Assembly (NCBI RefSeq): GCF_009936135.1
Contig: NZ_CP047901.1
Span: 695,927 to 759,926, forward strand
Direction of reading: 5' to 3'
From: Candidatus Chazhemtobacterium aquaticus
Lineage (GTDB): Bacteria; Patescibacteriota; Microgenomatia; UBA1400; Chazhemtobacteraceae
DNA: 64,000 bases
This document shows positions 8,922 through 61,136 of the stretch, piece by piece; the first letter of the stretch is position 1; each line of letters starts with the position of its first letter. Both the position numbers and the translations under genes were made by a program. Under the pieces are notes generated by a model. The model was not told the origin of the DNA. It searched no databases and saw only the letters and a program-made list of their open reading frames with translations.

Positions 8922-9071
8922 CTATCCCTCCACTTCCTGCCACCTCGTTATTGGCAATCTTACTCCATCAAAAGCTTCAATTACAAAGTCAGGCCTGAAG
9001 ATAAATAACTCACTTGGAGCTGTATTATCCACGTGTATAAATCGCGATACATTTCGGAATCTTCTTAACAA
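8922..9071 (-). pseudogene. C-terminal remnant (about 49 codons) of a paralog of the Cys-rich secreted protein gene at 10731-12449
   Basis: Minus-strand translation gives ...NTAPSELFIFRPDFVIEAFDGVRLPITRWQEVEG*, identical to the C-terminus of the 572-aa protein; an in-frame stop sits immediately upstream at 9072-9074. Confidence 0.7.
8936..9026. repeat. 91-bp direct repeat copy 1 (2 mismatches versus 10745-10835)
   Basis: cctgccacctcgttattggcaatcttactccatcaaaagc[t/c]tcaattacaaagtcaggcc[t/g]gaagataaataactcacttggagctgtatt. Confidence 0.9.
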
Positions 9072-10135
9072 TTAAAGAAGATTTAAAATGCCCAGTGACT
9101 ACCCTCATCTTAGATATTCATTTGATCGAAAGACTTGTCTGACATATCGTCGGGTAATGAAAACACTAGCCAGTTCACTTACCTTTGATACTTCTGATGT
9201 AGCTCGCTTCCGGCTCCATGTTCTGGAGCACTACTACAAGTATGGTCTTGTTCCAACCCTGGATGTCTTTGGGGTCAAGAAGAGTACTCTGTACGACTGG
9301 AAGAAGCGCTTTGAAGTCTCTGGCAAGAAACTCAACAGTCTGGTACCTGTCTCCACCAAACCAAAAGAACTCAGGAGAATGAACACAGACTGGAGACTAG
9401 TGGAGTTGATCAAGACCATGAGAAAAGAATATGGAAACGTTGGTGCCAATATACTAAAACCCTTTGTAGATGCTTTGGCGACAGACCTAAATATCCCCAC
9501 CATTAGCAAGACCACCATCACTAAGATCGTTAAGATACGAAGATTAACTTTTGAGACCAAAGTCAAGCTCAAAAAGAAGAGTAAACAACCACGGTTGCGA
9601 ACCAAAAGGTCTCCTAAAGTCACTTCTGCAGGATACGTTCAACTGGATTGTATTACCCTTTACATTAATCGCGAAAAACATTTGTTTGTGTGCTGTATTG
9701 ATGTCTTTACTAAGTTTGCTTTAGTGAGACGAGTTAAGTCCTTGTCGTCTCAATCAGCCAAACAAGTCTTGGTGACTTTTGAACAACTAACCAGTCACTC
9801 TGTCCACACTGTGCAAACAGACAATGGTAGTGAGTTTCTTGGAGTGTTTGACAGATATCTCGAAGACCAAGGTATCAAACACATCTTTACTTACCCCAGG
9901 TCTCCCAGAATCAATGGAGTGGTGGAGAGACTCAACAGAACTGTCCAAAAAGAGTTCATTAAAAGAAGTGATGAGATTTACTACAATACCAAAGCCTTTG
10001 ATGAAAAGCTGACAAAATGGTTACATTGGTACAATTACCAAAGACCACACTACGCACTTAAATATTTATCACCCGTTCAATTCATTAACACTCAGATTCC
10101 GAAAAGTGGGTGATCTATACACCACGATCCCCAAA
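9031..10135 (+). mobile_element. IS481-like insertion sequence (ends approximate)
   Basis: Single DDE transposase ORF; imperfect inverted ends around ..cacgtgtata.. (left) and ..tatacaccacg.. (right). Confidence 0.5.
9088..10113 (+). CDS. DDE transposase, rve integrase-core, IS481-like
   Basis: QLDCITLY...TDNGSEF...NGVVER catalytic triad context and HWYNYQRPHYAL..SP tail. Confidence 0.75.
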   Translation: MPSDYPHLRYSFDRKTCLTYRRVMKTLASSLTFDTSDVARFRLHVLEHYYKYGLVPTLDVFGVKKSTLYDWKKRFEVSGKKLNSLVPVSTKPKELRRMNTDWRLVELIKTMRKEYGNVGANILKPFVDALATDLNIPTISKTTITKIVKIRRLTFETKVKLKKKSKQPRLRTKRSPKVTSAGYVQLDCITLYINREKHLFVCCIDVFTKFALVRRVKSLSSQSAKQVLVTFEQLTSHSVHTVQTDNGSEFLGVFDRYLEDQGIKHIFTYPRSPRINGVVERLNRTVQKEFIKRSDEIYYNTKAFDEKLTKWLHWYNYQRPHYALKYLSPVQFINTQIPKSG

Positions 10136-10160
10136 ATTCAAAAATGTGTATAATCAAAGC

Positions 10161-10466
10161 ATGCCAAGACAAAGAATCCAATTCAACCTCCCTGTATCTA
10201 TCCTCAAAGAAGGTAAAGTTTTTGTCGCTTATTCACCCGCAATTGATATTTCCACAGTCGGCGAAACATTTGAAGAGGTACAACAGCGATTTGAGGAAGC
10301 CGCAAACATTTTTTTCGAGGAAACGATCGAACACCAAACTTTCGAAGAAGCTTTACTCGAATTAGGATGGCAGAAAGAGAACAAGCGTCTCGTACCCCCC
10401 ATCGTCATATCAAACCAAACAAAACTATTCTCCTTGAGTCACGACGCACCCACACCACATGCCTAG
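10161..10466 (+). CDS. hicB: HicB-family antitoxin (UPF0150/RNase H-like fold)
   Basis: FNLPVSILKEGKVFVAYSPAIDISTVGETFEEVQQRFEEA matches the HicB N-terminal domain; the frame is also open from GTG at 10110, overlapping the transposase stop. Confidence 0.6.
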   Translation: MPRQRIQFNLPVSILKEGKVFVAYSPAIDISTVGETFEEVQQRFEEAANIFFEETIEHQTFEEALLELGWQKENKRLVPPIVISNQTKLFSLSHDAPTPHA

Positions 10467-10689
10467 TATCACCCCCATTCACTGGAAAAAGTTTGAAAAA
10501 TTTTTAATTTACGTGGGCTGCGAATTCAAAAGGCAAAAGGGAGATCACCGTGTATACTGGAGATCAGGCCTAATAAGACCAATCATTCTCCCAACATACA
10601 AAAGTTTACCTGTATTCATCATCAGAAACAATCTCAGAACACTCGGCATTGACCATAATGATTACCTAGAAATACTAAAAACCATCTAG
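10459..10689 (+). CDS. hicA: HicA-family mRNA interferase toxin
   Basis: 76 aa; KKFEKFLIYVGCEFKRQKGDHRVYW...PIILPTYKSLPVFIIRNNLRTLGI matches the HicA/YcfA fold; 8-nt overlap with hicB. Confidence 0.65.
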   Translation: MPSITPIHWKKFEKFLIYVGCEFKRQKGDHRVYWRSGLIRPIILPTYKSLPVFIIRNNLRTLGIDHNDYLEILKTI

Positions 10690-10730
10690 CCACAATCCCT
10701 TTCCACCACTTGCCAACACACTCCCTCCTC

Positions 10731-12449
10731 CTATCCTTCTACCTCCTGCCACCTCGTTATTGGCAATCTTACTCCATCAAAAGCCTCAATTACAAAGTCA
10801 GGCCGGAAGATAAATAACTCACTTGGAGCTGTATTGTTAGTTGTTCCCCTGTCTCTGTTAAGCGAGACACTGCTCCACCCCACAAAAGTACCCTCACCCA
10901 CAAACTGTTGCTCTGTATTCTCATCACCAGTCGAAGCAATGTTTAGGGCATCTGCCATATACACCCCTTCCACTTGAGTTACATTACTAGCAAAGGAAAT
11001 TGATCCTGAAGCAACAATGCCTAAATAAGATCCTGGCTCTACATTAATATTACTGGTAATGGTTACATTACCGTCATGGATGATAAATAGCTTCTCATCT
11101 ACTCCACCACCCCCCATATTCCAATCAGAATCAATAACAATATCGCCACTACTTAAATATATGGTTCCTTCCTCACTGGCTGTTGGTTTACCCGATCCAT
11201 TCCAGGACTCTCGAGGTAGTATCCCTGTTTGAGCATAATAGTAACCATAATCAAAGACTCTACCCTGATAGGAAGACAAAGCGCTTCTCCTGTTTCCACT
11301 AGCAATGGCATTAGGTGTCTCGTAAATACTTAATGACGGTGCAAATGGTAATGCCGAGTCTCCAGTGCTTGAGTTTCTAACCAAAGGTGTATATATCGTT
11401 CCTCCAATATCAACACTTCCACAAGACGCTTGATTCTCAGCTAATATACAGGTCGATGGGATCGTCACAGCAATTCCTTGTTCGCTGGACATATCTCCTC
11501 CCTGAGTTTGGAACCATCCGCCAAAGATTCGATACAATCCCACTCTTCTGGTTACCACCTGTCCCTGAGAGCTTAAAGATATTCCACTTAAAGACCCATC
11601 ACAAAGCAACTTAGGAGGGCTAGTTACCCACAGATTCTCATCCACTGTATATGTCAGGTTGTAGCTGTCGGGTACTGGCAAATTACCTCTTGTGTATGCA
11701 CCGTTAACGTTAGTGGTAGTGGTGTATGAGCTTGAGTGATTTACCTGAGCAGTCAAGGTAACCCCAGCCCCTTCAATCTTTGGTTGAGAGGCAACAGTTG
11801 AACAGTTACTCACCGTACTGGCATCAAAGAAAGTTCCCGAAATTGTTCCTCGACAGTTCTCCGTTTCTGACAGACTTACCCCCGCACAATCATTAGTTCC
11901 ACAGTTCTCACTACAAGTTCTAGTTCTAGTCCTAGTAAAAGTAGTTGGACTACAGGCACTCCAAGCACTCCAAGCAGAAATATATGGACCACATTCAGTA
12001 CAAGTAGTTCCTACAGGTTGCCAATACCAACCGCCACAGGGATCAGCATAGGTGTTGTAGCAAGTTTGAGTTCCACAACCTGAATTACAGAAATACCCAG
12101 TCTGACTATAGTTCCCTATATCACTACTCGAACAAGTACCACCACAACCATCACTCTGACCACAATATGGGGAAGAACAAGAAGGAGTACATGGGGGTGA
12201 ACATGAATAACAATTAAAAAACGTGGGACTACCACACGTCGCAGGATCACCTGGACATGCCCCGGGACAAGAATAATATTCCACACCCTGACAATATCCA
12301 GGCCCACAACTTCCATTTGTACACCACTGGGTATCGCTACGATACATACACGAAGTCCACTTCTCACAAACATCAGCAAATAAATCACTATATCCAAATA
12401 CAACAAAAACCAACACAAAAACAAATACAAACAACCCTTTTCTTATCAT
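10731..12449 (-). CDS. large Cys-rich secreted protein with TSP1-like WSxWS motif and beta-helix-like C-terminal half
   Basis: Signal peptide MIRKGLFVFVFVLVFVVFG; more than 50 Cys in the N-terminal 200 aa; WSAWSACSPTTFTRTRTRTC resembles a thrombospondin type-1 repeat; G/S/T/N-rich repeats in the C-terminal half. Confidence 0.6.
   Translation of the reverse strand: MIRKGLFVFVFVLVFVVFGYSDLFADVCEKWTSCMYRSDTQWCTNGSCGPGYCQGVEYYSCPGACPGDPATCGSPTFFNCYSCSPPCTPSCSSPYCGQSDGCGGTCSSSDIGNYSQTGYFCNSGCGTQTCYNTYADPCGGWYWQPVGTTCTECGPYISAWSAWSACSPTTFTRTRTRTCSENCGTNDCAGVSLSETENCRGTISGTFFDASTVSNCSTVASQPKIEGAGVTLTAQVNHSSSYTTTTNVNGAYTRGNLPVPDSYNLTYTVDENLWVTSPPKLLCDGSLSGISLSSQGQVVTRRVGLYRIFGGWFQTQGGDMSSEQGIAVTIPSTCILAENQASCGSVDIGGTIYTPLVRNSSTGDSALPFAPSLSIYETPNAIASGNRRSALSSYQGRVFDYGYYYAQTGILPRESWNGSGKPTASEEGTIYLSSGDIVIDSDWNMGGGGVDEKLFIIHDGNVTITSNINVEPGSYLGIVASGSISFASNVTQVEGVYMADALNIASTGDENTEQQFVGEGTFVGWSSVSLNRDRGTTNNTAPSELFIFRPDFVIEAFDGVRLPITRWQEVEG
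10745..10835. repeat. 91-bp direct repeat copy 2 (inside the 3' end of the 10731-12449 gene)
   Basis: See copy 1. Confidence 0.9.
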
Positions 12450-13012
12450 AAACCACTACCTCTATAAATCATGATAAAACTCTCAACTTCATTGGTCTCT
12501 ATATTGCTCAATATACCAACAATATCACCAAACCTAACAACATGCATCAGTTCTAAGAAACCAACCTCTTCTGGGTCAGACAAATAAGCACCAACTAACT
12601 GCTCATTAGTAGCCAATTGAGCATTTTCTTCAACCCAACCCTTGTCAACCATAACATTAATCTTCTCCATGCTCGTTTCTACTAATTCCTCCTTAAAGTA
12701 AATCAATGACTCAATATTCTTTGCAGTGTTGTAACAATCAACGCTTTTACCACTCCAAACTAATAAACAACCTACTCTTCCCAGAAACACTCCCGGAGAT
12801 GCTGTCGTCACACCACCGGTATCACTCGACTTGTACTCATGCAAAATCGTAGAAGCATCAGCCAAACTACTATTAACCAGATCCATATGAGATCGTAAAA
12901 AAACGTGACTTTTAATCAAAACCATTCCATACCAACCAACAATAGCCAAAAATATCAAACCCGATATCAACATCAACCAATTCACCCAATCTACCTTCTT
13001 ATTCTCTTCCAC
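12446..13012 (-). CDS. membrane-anchored hypothetical protein (co-transcribed with the Cys-rich protein)
   Basis: N-terminal TM helix; ATGA overlap with the downstream gene. Confidence 0.45.
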   Translation of the reverse strand: MEENKKVDWVNWLMLISGLIFLAIVGWYGMVLIKSHVFLRSHMDLVNSSLADASTILHEYKSSDTGGVTTASPGVFLGRVGCLLVWSGKSVDCYNTAKNIESLIYFKEELVETSMEKINVMVDKGWVEENAQLATNEQLVGAYLSDPEEVGFLELMHVVRFGDIVGILSNIETNEVESFIMIYRGSGL

Positions 13013-13065: not shown

Positions 13066-13437
13066 CTAACAAGGACATGTCTCGTTTAAACCCACTGTTG
13101 ATGAGAAATATCCCACACTCCAGATACCAGAGTCCAGATATATCTTCCTGATGAACTTAAATTTTTTCTTTAATCGAAAGCTGGTATATGTCTTAATCCT
13201 TTGAACCACCCTGGCTACTGATATATCTGGTGAAATCTCAATTTGTAGATGAATGTGATCACTACCCGTGTTGACAGCGTAAAGATACAGTGTGGGATAT
13301 TTCTTGATCAGTTGGTGTAACTCTAACAGCAACTCTTCCTTGACATACGACTTGATGTATTTCCGTCTGTATTTTGTTCCCCAGACTAGATGGTACTGGT
13401 GTTGATAGGCACAGTGATTAAGGCTTCTCTTTCTCAT
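13066..13437 (-). CDS. tnpA: IS200/IS605-family Y1 (HUH) transposase TnpA
   Basis: YHLVWGTKYRRK and HIHLQIEISPDISVARVVQRIK motifs. Confidence 0.8.
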   Translation of the reverse strand: MRKRSLNHCAYQHQYHLVWGTKYRRKYIKSYVKEELLLELHQLIKKYPTLYLYAVNTGSDHIHLQIEISPDISVARVVQRIKTYTSFRLKKKFKFIRKIYLDSGIWSVGYFSSTVGLNETCPC

Positions 13438-13443
13438 GCAGTC

Positions 13444-13469
13444 AGCATATCAGGTCAGCCTGATATGCT
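13444..13469. repeat. perfect 11-bp-stem hairpin next to the tnpA start (putative IS200 end hairpin)
   Basis: agcatatcagg-tcag-cctgatatgct; a second hairpin ccccgcat...atgcgggg lies at about 13477-13527. Confidence 0.55.
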
Positions 13470-13541
13470 CATTCATCCCCGCATTCCATACGCTAACTAC
13501 TCTCGTGTGACGCTATTCCATGCGGGGTTTCCTGTAAGGAA

Positions 13542-13582
13542 GAAAAAACCGCCAGTCGGGTATGGGTATACCAAAACTGGCG
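13542..13582 (-). terminator. rho-independent terminator of the 13622-13996 gene
   Basis: ccgccagt...actggcgg stem followed by a T6 run on the minus strand. Confidence 0.6.
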
Positions 13583-13621
13583 GTCAGGGCCCTTCGCAGT
13601 TGCGATGGCGCACAGGTGCGC

Positions 13622-13996
13622 TTACGAAGGGCGGACGCGGCAGAACATCTCCGGGCTGTCGGGGACAAAGCCGTCTGCGCATTCCAGGTCGAAGACCACT
13701 TCCGGCTGCTCGACGGTGTTGAAGGTGATGCGCGTGACCCCGCTCAGGGAGTAGGGCACATTGCAGGAAGCGTAAACGCTGGGCGACGGGCTGTCAGCGG
13801 GAGGAACGAACATTCCCCCAGACCAGCCGTTGTCCAACACTTCCGTTGCGCACATCACGCGAGAACCGTCGGCGTAGAAGACGATCAGTCCACCGGGTTG
13901 CGACAGATCAACCTCATCCTGCGCCTGAATGGCCGAGCCACCCAGTGCCAGCATGAGAATCACTGCCATAAAAAGTACGCGGTTAACCTTGTTCAT
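13622..13996 (-). CDS. secreted hypothetical protein on a GC-rich (about 60%) foreign segment
   Basis: Signal peptide MNKVNRVLFMAVILMLALGGSAIQA; SD AGGAGGT 6 nt upstream; local GC and G content differ from the rest of the window. Confidence 0.55.
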   Translation of the reverse strand: MNKVNRVLFMAVILMLALGGSAIQAQDEVDLSQPGGLIVFYADGSRVMCATEVLDNGWSGGMFVPPADSPSPSVYASCNVPYSLSGVTRITFNTVEQPEVVFDLECADGFVPDSPEMFCRVRPS

Positions 13997-14220
13997 CTCG
14001 TACCTCCTGTACGTCTATAGGTTATCCGATATTTATTAATATACAACAAAGTCATCCTCTTGTCAAGTGTTATGGGTCTCTAGGGGGCAAAAATCAATAC
14101 AGCTAAACTGCTACTCAACTGGTATCAGAATACCAAATCCCCTCCTCCTGTCAACTCGGGTACACATCAAGCCATTCTATGTGTCAACCCCCACGCTACT
14201 AAATAACTACTCAACCAGCT

Positions 14221-14289
14221 ACAATATTCCCTATGCAGACTGTTATTAACAACACTCTTACTCACTATCTGCTTATCAAATCCTACCGC
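14221..14289. repeat. about 70-bp imperfect direct repeat copy 1 (matches 17381-17459, the start of the hydrolase gene)
   Basis: tcaaccagctacaatattcc[c/t]tatgcagactgttattaaca[a/c]c[a/g]ctcttactcactatctgct[t/c]atcaa. Confidence 0.85.
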
Positions 14290-17318: not shown

Positions 17319-17380
17319 AGAACTTGAGAAACAAACAAATGAATTATCATCAACATTCTAGAAAACTAGCCCCCCTCCCC

Positions 17381-17459
17381 TCAACCAGCTACAATATTCC
17401 TTATGCAGACTGTTATTAACACCGCTCTTACTCACTATCTGCTCATCAACCCCAAAGCC
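17381..17459. repeat. about 70-bp direct repeat copy 2 (native start of the hydrolase gene)
   Basis: See 14221-14289. Confidence 0.85.
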
Positions 17460-36489: not shown

Positions 36490-36564
36490 TGCGCACAAGA
36501 GGATTCGAACCTCTAATTTCGACTCTCGTCATCTGTCGACGTTTTGCCGTTAAACTATGTGCGC
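36490..36564 (-). tRNA. atypical tRNA-like gene (perfect acceptor, D- and T-arms; anticodon stem TCGAC/GTCGA closes an 11-nt loop)
   Basis: GCGCACA-TA-GTTT-AACGGCA-AAAC-G-TCGAC-AGATGACGAGA-GTCGA-AATT-AGAGG-TTCGAAT-CCTCT-TGTGCGC-A. Confidence 0.5.
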
Positions 36565-36582
36565 CCAAACCACGTGGGGGGA

Positions 36583-36652
36583 GGGACTCGAACCCTCAAC
36601 CTTGGATTGACAGTCCATGCTCGTCCATTGAGCTTCCCCCAACATATAAAAG
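36583..36652 (-). tRNA. tRNA-Asp(GUC), with non-canonical acceptor and 8-9 positions
   Basis: D-arm GCTC/GAGC; anticodon loop CUGUCAA; T-arm GAGGG-TTCGAGT-CCCTC; discriminator G; 5 G versus 6 C at the acceptor homopolymers. Confidence 0.6.
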
Positions 36653-36660
36653 AACAAACA

Positions 36661-36767
36661 AGCGGGTAGGAGGACTCGAACCCCCAACCGTCGGTTTCCA
36701 TCAGAAAGCCTGCAGACCTCCCATGAAAACTGGAAAGCGCCGCTCTATCCAATTGAGCTATACCCGC
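36661..36767 (-). tRNA. 107-nt tRNA-like gene with an internal insertion or duplication in the anticodon arm (possibly Arg-UCU or Lys-UUU)
   Basis: Acceptor GCGGGTA/TACCCGC, D-arm GCTC-AATTGGATA-GAGC, T-arm GGGGG-TTCGAGT-CCTCC; 55 nt between D- and T-arms containing near-duplicate TTTTCATGGGA / TTTCTGATGGAAA. Confidence 0.5.
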
Positions 36768-57220: not shown

Positions 57221-57293
57221 AGCCGAGACAGGGAATCGAACCCTGGACCCCGATCTTACCATGATCGTGCTCTACCGACTGAGCTATCTCGGC
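57221..57293 (-). tRNA. tRNA-Thr(GGU)
   Basis: Canonical cloverleaf; anticodon loop AUGGUAA. Confidence 0.85.
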
Positions 57294-57330
57294 CAATTAC
57301 TATGTTAAAAGTAGAATCATATCTCTACTG

Positions 57331-57413
57331 TGCTGGGGGAGGGATTCGAACCCCCGTAGGCTTAAGCCAGCGGATTTACAGTCCGCCCCCGTTGACCGCT
57401 TGGGTACCCCAGC
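57331..57413 (-). tRNA. tRNA-Tyr(GUA)
   Basis: Class II with long variable arm GGCTTAAGCC; anticodon loop CUGUAAA. Confidence 0.85.
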
Positions 57414-57469
57414 ATGCCCTTCAATTTTAACATGTTACAAGCACAAAATGTTAAAATTAATAGGCCTAA

Positions 57470-57545
57470 GCCGGCATAGCTCAGCAGGTAGAGCAACGCT
57501 TTTGTAAAGCGAAGGTCAGAGGTTCGATTCCTCTTGCCGGCTCCA
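57470..57545 (+). tRNA. tRNA-Thr(UGU)
   Basis: Canonical cloverleaf with encoded CCA; anticodon loop UUUGUAA. Confidence 0.85.
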
Positions 57546-61008: not shown

Positions 61009-61079
61009 GACCTTAGTTAGGCCCGTAGTGAAACGGCATCACAACTCTCTCCAAAAGAGTTATTCCAGGTTCGAATCCT
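61009..61079 (+). tRNA. tRNA-Trp(CCA)
   Basis: Canonical cloverleaf; anticodon loop CUCCAAA. Confidence 0.85.
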
Positions 61080-61136
61080 GGCGGGCCTGCCCCAATACCT
61101 CTTCCCGAACTAATCTATCCCAAAACACCTCAAAAC

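What the first reader, a model, noticed from the sequence alone, without database searches (positions are those of the whole stretch)
10731..13012. A large secreted Cys-rich protein with a thrombospondin-like WSxWSxCS..RxRxRxC motif and a beta-helix-like half, co-transcribed with a membrane protein
The protein has more than 50 cysteines in its first roughly 200 residues, many in CxxC and CGxG contexts. It contains the segment WSAWSACSPTTFTRTRTRTC, which matches the core of a TSP1 repeat; TSP1 repeats are rare in bacteria. The C-terminal half has G/S/T/N-rich repeats consistent with a parallel beta-helix adhesin or lyase fold. Its 3' end is the duplicated 91-bp segment, and a paralog remnant lies nearby, suggesting a rapidly evolving surface or adhesion gene family. 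The upstream membrane protein (ATGA overlap) may be its partner.
Basis: partly seen in the sequence, partly recalled or inferred. Interest (0 to 1): 0.6.

Follow-up and report, generated by a model that had tools for sequence, protein, structure and literature searches.

The report
Cys-rich secreted CPR surface protein
This gene encodes a secreted, disulfide-rich protein of an ultra-small "candidate phyla radiation" bacterium that carries a thrombospondin-like module and a strain-variable tip, belongs to a large unannotated family, and is probably a cell-surface attachment protein working with the small membrane protein encoded just upstream.

Summary
The ORF pair is real: 572 aa (10731-12449, minus) preceded by a 188-aa single-pass membrane protein (12446-13012) with an ATGA overlap. 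There are 26 Cys in the first 200 residues, not more than 50, and few CxxC/CGxG. The repeat is 105 nt, not 91.

The WSAWSAC...TRTRTRTC segment is predicted to fold as a thrombospondin type 1 repeat: modelled alone, almost all top PDB fold matches are TSRs. It fails Pfam TSP_1 and lacks one canonical disulfide, though relatives carry canonical TSRs.

Downstream come a CnaB-like beta-sandwich and a roughly 290-aa beta-rich domain, distantly linked to DUF7305 and weakly resembling ice-binding-protein solenoids. No pectate-lyase support was found.

The family is large (4,599 clusters at 50% identity), unannotated, and almost entirely Patescibacteria.

Residues 28-86 and the partner's ectodomain are replaced between strains whose flanks are 97-99% identical. 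The partner position is conserved phylum-wide and sometimes fused to the secreted protein.

The "paralog remnant" is the stranded ancestral 3' end, left by a 1.7-kb insertion carrying a transposase and HicAB.

Best reading: a strain-variable surface adhesin with a membrane partner. Function is inferred, not shown.

The parts
10731..12449 (-). 572-aa secreted Cys-rich protein (whole ORF). Domain order: signal peptide, hypervariable Cys tip, conserved CxPSC..CGQxxGCGGxC knot, two TSR-like units, CnaB-like sandwich, conserved C-terminal beta-rich domain.
   Evidence: ORF and translation. 29 close homologs and 4,599 family clusters. AF2 model with pLDDT 79.
12369..12449 (-). Signal peptide, aa 1-27 (MIRKGLFVFVFVLVFVVFGYSDLFA|DV).
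   Evidence: Sequence shows an n-region, h-region and AxA-like end. 84 of 141 family members start with the same short hydrophobic leader directly before the Cys-rich part. The cleavage site is inferred.
12192..12368 (-). Hypervariable Cys-rich tip, aa 28-86 (10 Cys).
   Evidence: About 20% identity to P0001 while aa 87-572 are 90-100% identical. DNA is not alignable between strains whose flanks are 97-99% identical. AF2 pLDDT is below 50.
12120..12191 (-). Conserved knot CTPSCSSPYCGQSDGCGGTCSSSD, aa 87-110.
   Evidence: This is the most conserved N-terminal block of the family, 67-88% identical even in the most distant members. Its structure is not confidently predicted.
11985..12119 (-). Degenerate TSR-like / beta-hairpin unit, aa 111-155.
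   Evidence: The family profile aligns across this unit plus the next to the two TSR-like domains of pleiotrophin and midkine at E 0.08-0.5. AF2 gives beta-hairpins with pLDDT 72-79.
11853..11984 (-). TSR-like module, aa 156-199: W160/W163, R173/R175/R177, and C166, C179, C183, C188, C199.
   Evidence: Modelled alone, the segment has pLDDT 87. Nearly all of the top 50 PDB fold hits are TSR domains, TMq 0.40-0.75. The top BFVD hit is a phage 'TSP1 repeat' protein. W and R counts co-vary in the family.
11595..11852 (-). CnaB / CarboxypepD_reg-like beta-sandwich, aa 200-285 (conserved GTxFDAS, C216, C283).
   Evidence: PF13620 at E 3e-5, 24.7 bits, below the gathering score of 32.3; it matches 18 of 27 relatives. 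Foldseek hits to SdrD B, BcpA and SpaA pilin domains at E 3e-4 to 2e-3. pLDDT above 90.
10731..11594 (-). Family-defining C-terminal beta-rich domain, aa 286-572 (GWFQ..GG, FVGEGTFVGW, RDRG.TNN..PSE.F.FRPDF, W.E at the very end).
   Evidence: Invariant W312, G495, G520 and R532 across 110 members. It is always C-terminal in the 150 best representatives. Relatives hit DUF7305; P0017 scores 27.6 bits against a cut-off of 27. There is weak fold similarity to ice-binding-protein solenoids (E 5e-3, TMt 0.42-0.45). No solved relative was found by sequence.
12446..13012 (-). 188-aa partner: N-terminal single transmembrane helix (aa ~11-33) plus a ~150-aa ectodomain. GTG start; its stop overlaps the ATG of the big gene (ATGA).
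   Evidence: Only 5 homolog clusters and no Pfam, NCBIfam or PHROG hit. The ectodomain is 22-44% identical to the L009 allele while the TM part is 78% identical. An analogous overlapping TM ORF is present in 9 distant loci. Fused forms exist.
13622..13996 (-). 124-aa small secreted protein with a signal peptide and 5 Cys. It is the first gene of the conserved three-gene arrangement.
   Evidence: The same order (small, TM, big) is seen in L009/L010, L007, L005 and L008. It is 98% identical to the L009 copy. A promoter-like site, TTGACA-17-TATATT, lies at 14066-14038.
13079..13542 (-). IS200-type (Y1 transposase) fragment inserted between the small gene and the partner gene.
   Evidence: PF01797 at E 5e-27. 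It is absent at exactly this point in L009, L008 and L011.
9027..10730 (+). 1.7-kb insertion immediately downstream of the gene. It carries an rve-family transposase (9088-10113), a HicB-like ORF (10110-10466; assignment inferred from position next to HicA, no Pfam hit) and the HicA toxin (10459-10689).
   Evidence: Pfam. Absent in L005, L009 and L011; present in L007 and L008. The transposase gene has GC skew -0.05 against about -0.45 in neighbouring genes.
8922..9026 (-). Stranded ancestral 3' end of the gene (35 codons plus stop).
   Evidence: 95% identical to 10731-10835, and all 5 differences are synonymous. It is 105/105 identical to the functional 3' end in L011 and to the remnants in L007 and L008. 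It is contiguous with the downstream synteny of L005/L011.

Best explanation
The 572-aa protein is a Sec-exported, disulfide-rich, modular surface or extracellular protein of a Patescibacteria (Microgenomates-type CPR) bacterium.

Its constant part is a CnaB-like stalk domain plus a roughly 290-aa beta-rich C-terminal domain. This part defines a large, unannotated, essentially CPR-specific family and probably docks or assembles the protein on the cell envelope.

Its N-terminal part is the variable 'business end'. It has a short hypervariable Cys-knot tip, a conserved Cys knot and two TSR-like units, one with a Trp/Arg ladder. This end most likely binds a ligand on another cell or surface.

The single-pass membrane protein encoded immediately upstream is translationally coupled. 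It is its dedicated partner, either a tether or an assembly factor.

Strain-to-strain replacement of the tip together with the partner ectodomain, by recombination, changes specificity or surface appearance.

Shown here: the architecture, the predicted folds, the family size and taxonomy, the gene pairing and fusions, and the allelic mosaic. Inferred: export, disulfides, adhesion and the partner's role.
For: Export and Cys content:
- A hydrophobic leader precedes a region with 15.1% Cys, against 0.45% background.

TSR-like module:
- The only PDB sequence matches are TSRs or TSR-like proteins: BAI1, F-spondin, UNC5, pleiotrophin, midkine.
- The segment modelled alone has pLDDT 87. Nearly all of the top 50 fold hits are TSR domains, TMq 0.40-0.75 overall; the best-fitting hits have rmsd 1.6-2.6 A.
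- The top viral fold hit is a phage TSP1-repeat protein.
- W and R counts co-vary in the family as a W/R ladder requires.
- Relatives carry canonical TSRs; P0061 scores 37.1 bits on Pfam TSP_1 against a cut-off of 21.6.

Stalk and body:
- The stalk shows CnaB/SdrD-B/pilin-like fold hits and sub-threshold PF13620 matches in 18 of 27 relatives.
- The family has 4,599 clusters at 50% identity, and the conserved part is always C-terminal.
- N-terminal modules in relatives are typical binding modules: F5/8C, LamG, Big_2, fn3, TSP_1.

Taxonomy:
- Named records are Collier-, Woese- and Chisholmbacteria, Paceibacterota and Microgenomates.

Variable tip:
- aa 28-86 are about 20% identical where the rest is 90-100% identical.
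- Partner and tip types go together in 7 loci.
- The mosaic dS pattern shows recombination.
- L008 keeps a truncated window-type partner gene upstream of a different cassette.

Partner:
- ATGA overlap.
- An overlapping upstream N-terminal-TM ORF of 170-250 aa in 9 distant loci.
- About 13 family members have a TM helix plus a 150-270 aa domain fused in front of the Cys-rich part, with an AYA-type signal-peptidase site retained at the junction.

Literature:
- CPR genomes are reported to encode large, Cys-rich, strain-variable extracellular proteins proposed to act in attachment (PMC4736985).
Against: - No experimental or annotated relative exists. Every homolog is 'hypothetical'.
- The C-terminal domain has no confident structural or sequence assignment. 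The ice-binding-protein similarity is only TMt 0.42-0.45, and there is no PDB sequence hit.
- This protein fails Pfam TSP_1. It also lacks the second and sixth canonical TSR cysteines.
- The tip and the conserved knot are not confidently modelled.
- Partner and tip are adjacent, so their joint replacement may reflect physical linkage alone rather than interaction.
- Upstream partners of different lineages share no detectable sequence similarity, so homology of the partners is unproven.
- dN/dS in the tip is about 0.5, not above 1, and dS is saturated. Positive selection is therefore not demonstrated.
- There is no cell-wall anchoring motif.
Confidence: 0.55

Rival explanations
1. The conserved C-terminal beta-rich domain is an enzyme, such as a polysaccharide lyase or hydrolase acting on a host or own cell-wall polymer. 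The N-terminal Cys-rich/TSR modules would then be substrate-targeting modules, as carbohydrate-binding modules are in CAZymes.
For: - The beta-solenoid-like prediction.
- Invariant or near-invariant polar residues (R532, N538, R549, D551) in the conserved C-terminal block.
- Relatives carry lectin-type modules (F5/8C, LamG) that often accompany glycan-active enzymes.
Against: - No hit to any Pfam or NCBIfam catalytic family.
- No pectate lyase or glycosidase among the top 50 PDB fold hits.
- No PDB sequence relative.
Confidence: 0.15
2. The pair is a contact-dependent competition or effector system. The variable N-terminal tip would be a small disulfide-rich effector or toxin, and the co-varying upstream membrane protein its cognate immunity or receptor protein.
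For: - Joint replacement of tip and partner ectodomain between strains.
- Hint / PT-HINT domains in 4 of 53 relatives.
- The locus is flanked by mobile elements and a HicAB module.
Against: - Polymorphic toxins place the variable toxin at the C-terminus with immunity downstream. Here the order is the mirror image.
- The tip is only about 60 aa and has no toxin-family hit.
- No PADLOC search was run. There is no PHROG hit.
- The HicAB/IS insertion is absent in close relatives, so it is not part of the system.
Confidence: 0.1
3. It is an accessory or tip protein of a filament such as a type IV pilus. The C-terminal DUF7305-related domain would dock onto pilus subunits. From memory, not verified here, DUF7305 may occur in pilin-like proteins.
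For: - A weak DUF7305 link in relatives.
- CnaB-like stalk domains are typical of pilus-associated adhesins.
- The CPR literature proposes pili in inter-organism interaction.
Against: - No class III (prepilin) signal sequence is present; the leaders are ordinary Sec type.
- No pilus genes lie next to the gene in the window or in L001, L003, L005 and L007-L010.
Confidence: 0.1
4. The hypervariability of the tip is generated by a diversity-generating retroelement (DGR), which is frequent in CPR genomes.
For: CPR genomes are known to be rich in DGRs (general knowledge, not tested here).
Against: - No second copy (template repeat) of the variable region exists in the 64-kb window, and no reverse-transcriptase-like long ORF was found.
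- Variation includes indels, non-alignable DNA and the neighbouring gene.
- dS is saturated, which points to replacement by recombination rather than adenine mutagenesis.
Confidence: 0.03

Closest known systems
Thrombospondin type 1 repeat (TSR; Pfam TSP_1 PF00090), as in thrombospondin-1, properdin, complement C6-C9, F-spondin, BAI1, UNC5 and apicomplexan TRAP/MIC2
   Same: - WSxWSxC followed by an RxRxRxC ladder at the right spacing.
- Predicted elongated three-strand fold whose top structural matches are TSRs.
- An extracellular, disulfide-rich, modular context.
- Canonical TSRs occur in other members of the same family.
   Different: - It does not reach the Pfam TSP_1 threshold.
- The CSxxCG second cysteine and the sixth cysteine are absent, so one canonical disulfide is missing.
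- An extra Cys (C183) is present.
- The host is a CPR bacterium, not a eukaryote.
- Nothing is known about C-mannosylation or O-fucosylation.
Midkine / pleiotrophin (two tandem TSR-like beta-sheet domains)
   Same: The family profile aligns over two consecutive units (profile positions 125-204) to the two domains of pleiotrophin and midkine. Midkine also appears among the fold hits.
   Different: E-values are only 0.08-0.5. There are no heparin-binding basic clusters. The overall protein is entirely different.
Gram-positive MSCRAMM / pilin stalk domains (CnaB, SdrD B repeats, BcpA, SpaA) and the CarboxypepD_reg domain
   Same: The fold of aa 200-285 and sub-threshold PF13620, PF17210 hits. The likely role is as a stalk between a binding head and an anchoring part.
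   Different: - There is a single domain, not a repeat array.
- A conserved disulfide pair (C216, C283) is present, and no isopeptide-bond residues were identified.
- No LPXTG sortase signal.
Large Cys-rich, strain-variable extracellular proteins of CPR bacteria (Peregrinibacteria; Anantharaman et al. 2016, PMC4736985)
   Same: CPR origin, signal peptide, very high Cys content, strain variation, and a proposed attachment role.
   Different: Those proteins average about 1,650 aa and show weak similarity to Myxococcus Cys-rich repeats. This family is defined by a different conserved C-terminal domain and a paired membrane protein, which are not described there.
Ice-binding-protein-type beta-solenoid (DUF3494; FfIBP, Colwellia IBP) and Pfam DUF7305
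   Same: Weak fold similarity of the C-terminal domain (E 5e-3, about 270 aligned columns). DUF7305 matches the solenoid part of relatives.
   Different: - TMt is only 0.42-0.45.
- There is no sequence-level relation to solved ice-binding proteins.
- The window protein itself does not hit DUF7305.
- Neither family has a defined general function.

Membership tests
TSP1 repeat (Pfam PF00090) | Trp motif WxxW(xxW) in the first strand | tested here: met
   W160 and W163 in WSAWSAC. The Trp is conserved in the family.
TSP1 repeat (Pfam PF00090) | RxRxR motif in the second strand that interleaves with the Trp residues | tested here: met
   R173, R175 and R177 are present; R177 is nearly invariant. 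In the family, 1 W goes with 2 R/K in 42 of 47 cases and 2 W with 3 R/K in 18 of 27. The stacking itself was not inspected because no model coordinates were available.
TSP1 repeat (Pfam PF00090) | Six conserved cysteines forming three disulfides, including CSxxCG | tested here: not met
   Only C166, C179, C188 and C199 align to canonical positions. The CSxxCG second Cys and the sixth Cys are absent, and C183 is extra.
TSP1 repeat (Pfam PF00090) | Profile score at or above the Pfam gathering threshold (21.6 bits) | tested here: not met
   No TSP_1 hit for this protein at E up to 10. The relative P0061 scores 37.1 bits; P0171 scores 20.9 and P0046 18.8.
TSP1 repeat (Pfam PF00090) | Elongated three-stranded TSR fold | tested here: met
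   This is a prediction only. The AF2 model of aa 152-202 has pLDDT 87. Foldseek PDB top 50 hits are nearly all TSR domains; for example MIC2 8j64 has TMt 0.70 and rmsd 1.8 A, and F-spondin 1vex has TMt 0.59.
Right-handed parallel beta-helix, pectate-lyase-like | Sequence or fold match to pectate lyase / pectin lyase-like families | tested here: not met
   No Pfam or NCBIfam hit. None is among the top 50 PDB fold matches.
Beta-solenoid of ice-binding-protein type (DUF3494) | Fold similarity over the whole domain | tested here: inconclusive
Pfam DUF7305 (PF23981) | Profile score at or above the gathering threshold (27 bits) | tested here: inconclusive
   The window protein has no hit. Relative P0017 scores 27.6 bits at residues 653-751; 5 of 53 relatives match at E up to 1e-3.
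CarboxypepD_reg / CnaB-type beta-sandwich | Profile hit and fold match | tested here: inconclusive
   PF13620 scores 24.7 bits, below the cut-off of 32.3, at E 3e-5; 18 of 27 relatives match. Fold hits to SdrD, BcpA, SpaA and CnaB2 at E 3e-4 to 1e-2.
Polymorphic toxin / immunity pair | C-terminal variable toxin domain followed by a downstream immunity gene | tested here: not met
   The variable part is N-terminal and the co-varying gene is upstream. No toxin-family hit.
DGR target gene | Variable repeat with a cognate template repeat and a reverse transcriptase nearby | tested here: not met
   No second copy of 12101-13012 and no RT-like long ORF in the window. The rest of the genome could not be tested.
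Sortase-anchored (LPXTG) surface protein | C-terminal LPXTG motif plus a hydrophobic tail | tested here: not met
   The C-terminus is ...RLPITRWQEVEG with no hydrophobic tail.

The most novel reading that the evidence does not exclude
The pair could be a phylum-wide, two-component host-attachment module of CPR episymbionts. A membrane-anchored partner would hold or assemble a secreted adhesin. The adhesin's TSR-type Trp/Arg-ladder modules and exchangeable Cys-knot tip would determine which host cell is recognised, and cassette swapping at this locus would set strain-level host range.

A bolder extension is that the WxxW Trp ladder is glycosylated by the GT-C-type membrane glycosyltransferases found next to one paralog (L001), in analogy to eukaryotic C-mannosylation of TSRs.
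Probability: 0.2. Interest if true: 0.8.

Novelty: new variant of a known kind. Interest (0 to 1): 0.5.

Why it matters
How ultra-small CPR/Patescibacteria cells recognise and hold on to their hosts is largely unknown, and very few of them are cultivated.

A large family (thousands of clusters) of unannotated secreted proteins with these properties is a concrete candidate for the specificity determinant:
- a constant body,
- exchangeable binding heads,
- a conserved membrane partner,
- a strain-variable tip.

This gives defined targets for localisation, binding and knockout experiments in tractable relatives.

It also documents TSR-type modules, usually regarded as an animal and apicomplexan adhesion domain, as a recurrent building block in CPR surface proteins.

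Tried and rejected
Searches that found nothing for the window proteins:
- Pfam, NCBIfam and PHROGs on both proteins gave nothing above threshold.
- A PDB sequence search with the C-terminal-domain profile gave only a chance hit to AMBP at E 0.45.
- A tblastn against 50,697 phage records gave no match, so a prophage tail-fibre origin was dropped.
- The literature search for DUF7305 found 0 papers. Searches for thrombospondin plus CPR or Patescibacteria found only type 3 repeats or irrelevant papers.
- The last word-indexed protein search, with the C-terminal profile, returned only 'hypothetical protein' names.

Hypotheses tested and dropped:
- DGR: no template repeat or RT in the window.
- 'Paralog remnant': rejected in favour of a stranded ancestral 3' end.
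- Homology among upstream partners of different lineages: not detectable by phmmer and no Pfam hit.
- Positive selection: dS is saturated, so dN/dS is not informative beyond showing a relaxed tip against a constrained body.
Full report
**1. What is in the sequence**

On the minus strand, a 188-aa ORF (12446-13012, GTG start) and a 572-aa ORF (10731-12449) overlap by ATGA. A GAGG-type ribosome-binding site precedes the second start.

The cysteine count is wrong. There are 30 Cys in all, 26 of them in the first 200 residues. Only two are in CxxC and one in CGxG contexts.

The enrichment is still striking: 15.1% Cys in aa 28-199, against 0.45% in 26 other ORFs of the window.

**2. Organism and setting**

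The window is ordinary chromosome. It carries HisRS, RF-1, an HtrA-like protease, an S41 peptidase, SpoU, Mur ligase, Ddl, SSB, CysRS and RecR.

A member of the cluster of homolog P0004 is OQA83545.1 from 'Microgenomates group bacterium ADurb.Bin238'. Other named relatives are Collierbacteria, Woesebacteria, Chisholmbacteria, Paceibacterota and 'Patescibacteria group' MAGs. There is one Anaerolineales hit, one short 'Spirochaetia' contig, and a number of TPA records labelled Pseudomonadales or Gammaproteobacteria, labels that are probably unreliable. The gene therefore belongs to a CPR/Patescibacteria bacterium.

**3. Architecture of the 572-aa protein**

An AlphaFold2 model built on 27 homologs has mean pLDDT 79. 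Residues 18-105 are low confidence and residues 110-560 are mostly confident. Combining the model, the alignments and the searches gives the following order.

- **aa 1-27:** Sec-type signal peptide.
- **aa 28-86:** hypervariable Cys-rich tip.
- **aa 87-110:** the block CTPSCSSPYCGQSDGCGGTCSSSD. It is the most conserved N-terminal element of the whole family.
- **aa 111-155:** Cys-rich beta-hairpins.
- **aa 156-199:** the TSR-like module.
- **aa 200-285:** a CnaB/CarboxypepD_reg-like beta-sandwich. PF13620 gives E 3e-5, below threshold, but matches 18 of 27 relatives. Foldseek hits SdrD B, BcpA and SpaA at E 3e-4 to 2e-3.
- **aa 286-572:** a beta-rich domain with short strands in groups of three and a few helices.

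**4. The TSR question**

Pfam TSP_1 does not hit this protein, even at E 10. The evidence in favour comes from other sources.

- The only PDB sequences that phmmer finds with the whole protein are two TSRs: BAI1 (7r84, E 0.41) and F-spondin (1vex, E 0.89). Both align over aa 157-199.
- A profile of this segment from 12 relatives finds BAI1, UNC5A, UNC5D and pleiotrophin at E 0.1-0.8.
- The whole-family profile finds pleiotrophin and midkine across two consecutive units.
- None of these is individually significant, but together they are 10 of the 12 matches reported from 177,635 distinct PDB sequences; the other two were 21-residue amyloid-beta peptides.
- The 51-residue segment modelled alone has pLDDT 87. 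Its top 50 Foldseek PDB matches are almost exclusively TSR domains: complement C6/C8/C9, MIC2, semaphorin-5A, thrombospondin-1, properdin and F-spondin. TMq is 0.40-0.75 across the 50 hits; the best-fitting hits have rmsd 1.6-2.6 A.
- The best BFVD match of the whole model is a phage protein named 'Thrombospondin type-1 (TSP1) repeat' (E 2.9e-4).
- Within the family the numbers of ladder residues co-vary. One Trp goes with two Arg/Lys in 42 of 47 instances. Two Trp go with three in 18 of 27 (many instances are related, so these are not independent counts).
- Six of 176 fetched family members carry fully canonical TSRs (WSxWGxCSxxCGGG...). P0061 passes the Pfam TSP_1 threshold at 37.1 bits against 21.6.

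My reading is that this is a degenerate TSR-type module. The fold and the W/R ladder are there, but one canonical disulfide is missing: the CSxxCG second Cys and the sixth Cys are absent. It works like a TSR but fails strict membership.

**5. The C-terminal half**

No pectate-lyase or other catalytic family is detected.

Foldseek places the C-terminal domain weakly with ice-binding-protein beta-solenoids (E 5e-3, TMt 0.42-0.45, about 270 columns). Relatives give borderline hits to Pfam DUF7305 over the solenoid part; P0017 scores 27.6 bits against a cut-off of 27.

A profile of the domain finds no solved structure and only 'hypothetical protein' names.

**6. Family size and modularity**

A profile search of 1.84 billion representatives finds 4,599 clusters at E up to 1e-3 and 1,171 at E up to 1e-30. 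The conserved part is always at the C-terminus, and proteins range from about 260 to about 2,000 aa.

In 53 diverse members the N-terminal parts carry TSP_1, F5/8 type C, LamG, Big_2, fn3 and Hint/PT-HINT modules. This is the pattern of a constant body with exchangeable binding heads.

The protein is not a singleton. One MAG (GCA_020724745.1) has two paralogs at different loci. The window itself has only one copy.

**7. The hypervariable cassette**

Relatives with collinear flanks at 95-99% DNA identity (L005, L007, L008, L009, L011) differ abruptly in two places: the partner gene and the first ~85 codons of the big gene.

At the protein level, aa 28-86 are about 20% identical to P0001 while aa 87-572 are 90-100% identical.

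Three cassette types are seen, and partner type and tip type always go together:

| Cassette type | Loci |
|---|---|
| Window type | window, L011, L007, L009/L010 |
| Second type | L005, L008 |
| Third type | L001 |

Between the window and L009 the identities are:

| Element | Identity |
|---|---|
| Small upstream secreted protein | 98% |
| Partner protein | 44% |
| Tip of the big protein | 50% |
| Body of the big protein | 90% |

Synonymous divergence is saturated (dS about 1) through the big gene, even where flanks are nearly identical. The body is under strong purifying selection (dN/dS about 0.05). The tip is relaxed (dN/dS about 0.5).

L005 versus L008 is a clear mosaic. The partner genes are nearly identical (one nonsynonymous difference, dS 0). 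The tip has dS of about 1. The 3' half has dS of 0.1-0.4.

L008 even retains a truncated window-type partner gene upstream of a different complete cassette.

No template repeat or reverse transcriptase exists in the window. The variation therefore comes from recombinational replacement of old allelic cassettes, not from a DGR.

The window allele also lacks one 27-aa CxECGP...W.Q.Y.C repeat unit that L011, P0001, P0004 and P0005 have.

**8. The partner**

The 188-aa protein has a basic N-terminus, one transmembrane helix and a roughly 150-aa ectodomain. It has five homolog clusters and no family assignment.

In nine distant family loci (27-34% identity of the big protein) an ORF of 170-250 aa with an N-terminal hydrophobic helix overlaps the start of the big gene by 4-13 nt. 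These partners share no detectable sequence similarity across lineages and have no Pfam hit.

About 13 of 141 examined family members instead begin with a TM helix and a 150-270-aa domain. This extension ends in a hydrophobic stretch plus an AYA-type signal-peptidase motif, directly before the Cys-rich part. In other words, partner and secreted protein are fused.

Conserved position, translational coupling and fusion together argue for a functional pair. Whether the partner is a tether, a chaperone or something else is inference.

**9. The duplicated 3' end**

8922-9026 and 10731-10835 are 105 nt and 95% identical, and all five differences are synonymous.

The downstream copy is 105/105 identical to the functional gene end of the insertion-free relative L011, and to the remnants in L007 and L008. 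It is also contiguous with the conserved downstream synteny.

Between the copies lie an rve transposase, a HicB-like ORF and HicA. These are absent in L005, L009 and L011. The transposase gene has a GC skew of -0.05, against about -0.45 in neighbouring genes.

The remnant is therefore the ancestral gene end, stranded by an insertion that brought its own copy of the last 35 codons. How a 105-nt duplication arose with a DDE transposase is unexplained.

A second insertion is an IS200-type fragment at 13079-13542. It separates the small secreted gene from the partner gene in this strain only.

**10. Mechanism, rivals and novelty**

The best-supported reading is a secreted, disulfide-stabilised adhesin-type surface protein with three parts:
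- a constant stalk and body,
- TSR-type binding modules with a strain-exchangeable tip,
- a dedicated membrane partner.

This fits the published general observation that CPR genomes encode large Cys-rich, strain-variable extracellular proteins proposed to act in attachment (PMC4736985). That paper describes different proteins.

Rivals remain possible but less supported:
- an enzyme in the C-terminal domain,
- an effector/immunity pair,
- a pilus-associated protein.

I found no description of this family, of its partner, or of TSR type 1 modules in CPR in the searchable literature.

I rate it a new variant of a known kind (modular bacterial surface adhesins), of moderate interest. Its function is inferred, not shown.

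Noticed in passing
window 1-64000: Extreme strand asymmetry. The window has C 20,095 against G 8,423, a GC skew of -0.41 that does not depend on gene orientation. Related loci show the same magnitude (0.26-0.46). This is far above the strand skews I recall as typical for bacteria (recollection, not checked). The rve transposase gene (skew -0.05) stands out as recently acquired.
   Followed up: partly
window 9027-10730: A polymorphic 1.7-kb insertion carries an rve-family transposase, a HicB-like ORF and the HicA toxin. It is bounded by 105-nt direct copies of the target gene's 3' end. It is present in L007 and L008 and absent in L005, L009 and L011. How such a long duplication arose is unexplained.
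   Followed up: partly
window 13079-13542: An IS200-type Y1 transposase fragment (PF01797, E 5e-27) is inserted between the small secreted gene and the partner gene. It is absent at this exact point in L008, L009 and L011. It lies just downstream of a terminator-like hairpin seen by eye (CCGCCAGT...ACTGGCGG followed by a T run, about 13583-13543).
   Followed up: partly
window 14210-14279 and 17380-17449: A 70-nt intergenic direct repeat, 94% identical. The same element sits at the junction between the truncated and the complete cassette in L008, so it may be a recombination joint.
   Followed up: no
window 13390-14020, plus strand: Long plus-strand ORFs (110 and 152 aa, Arg/Ala/Gly-rich translations) overlap the minus-strand 124-aa secreted-protein gene (13622-13996). 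They are probably spurious antisense ORFs; local base composition was not computed.
   Followed up: no
L001 9878-17411 (relative, GCA_020724745.1): A second paralog (P0004) sits next to several glycosyltransferases and membrane proteins of the PMT_2 and PTPS_related type. This hints that some family members may be glycosylated.
   Followed up: no
window 11982-12003: The window allele lacks one 27-aa (81-nt) CxECGPYGSQSCGNWTQTYDCRSSVSG repeat unit that is present in L011, P0001, P0004 and P0005. This is repeat-number variation inside the Cys-rich region.
   Followed up: partly
window 36490-36767 and 57221-57542, 61019-61089: Seven tRNA genes lie in two clusters plus one single gene. One match (36661-36767) is unusually long at 107 nt.
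   Followed up: no
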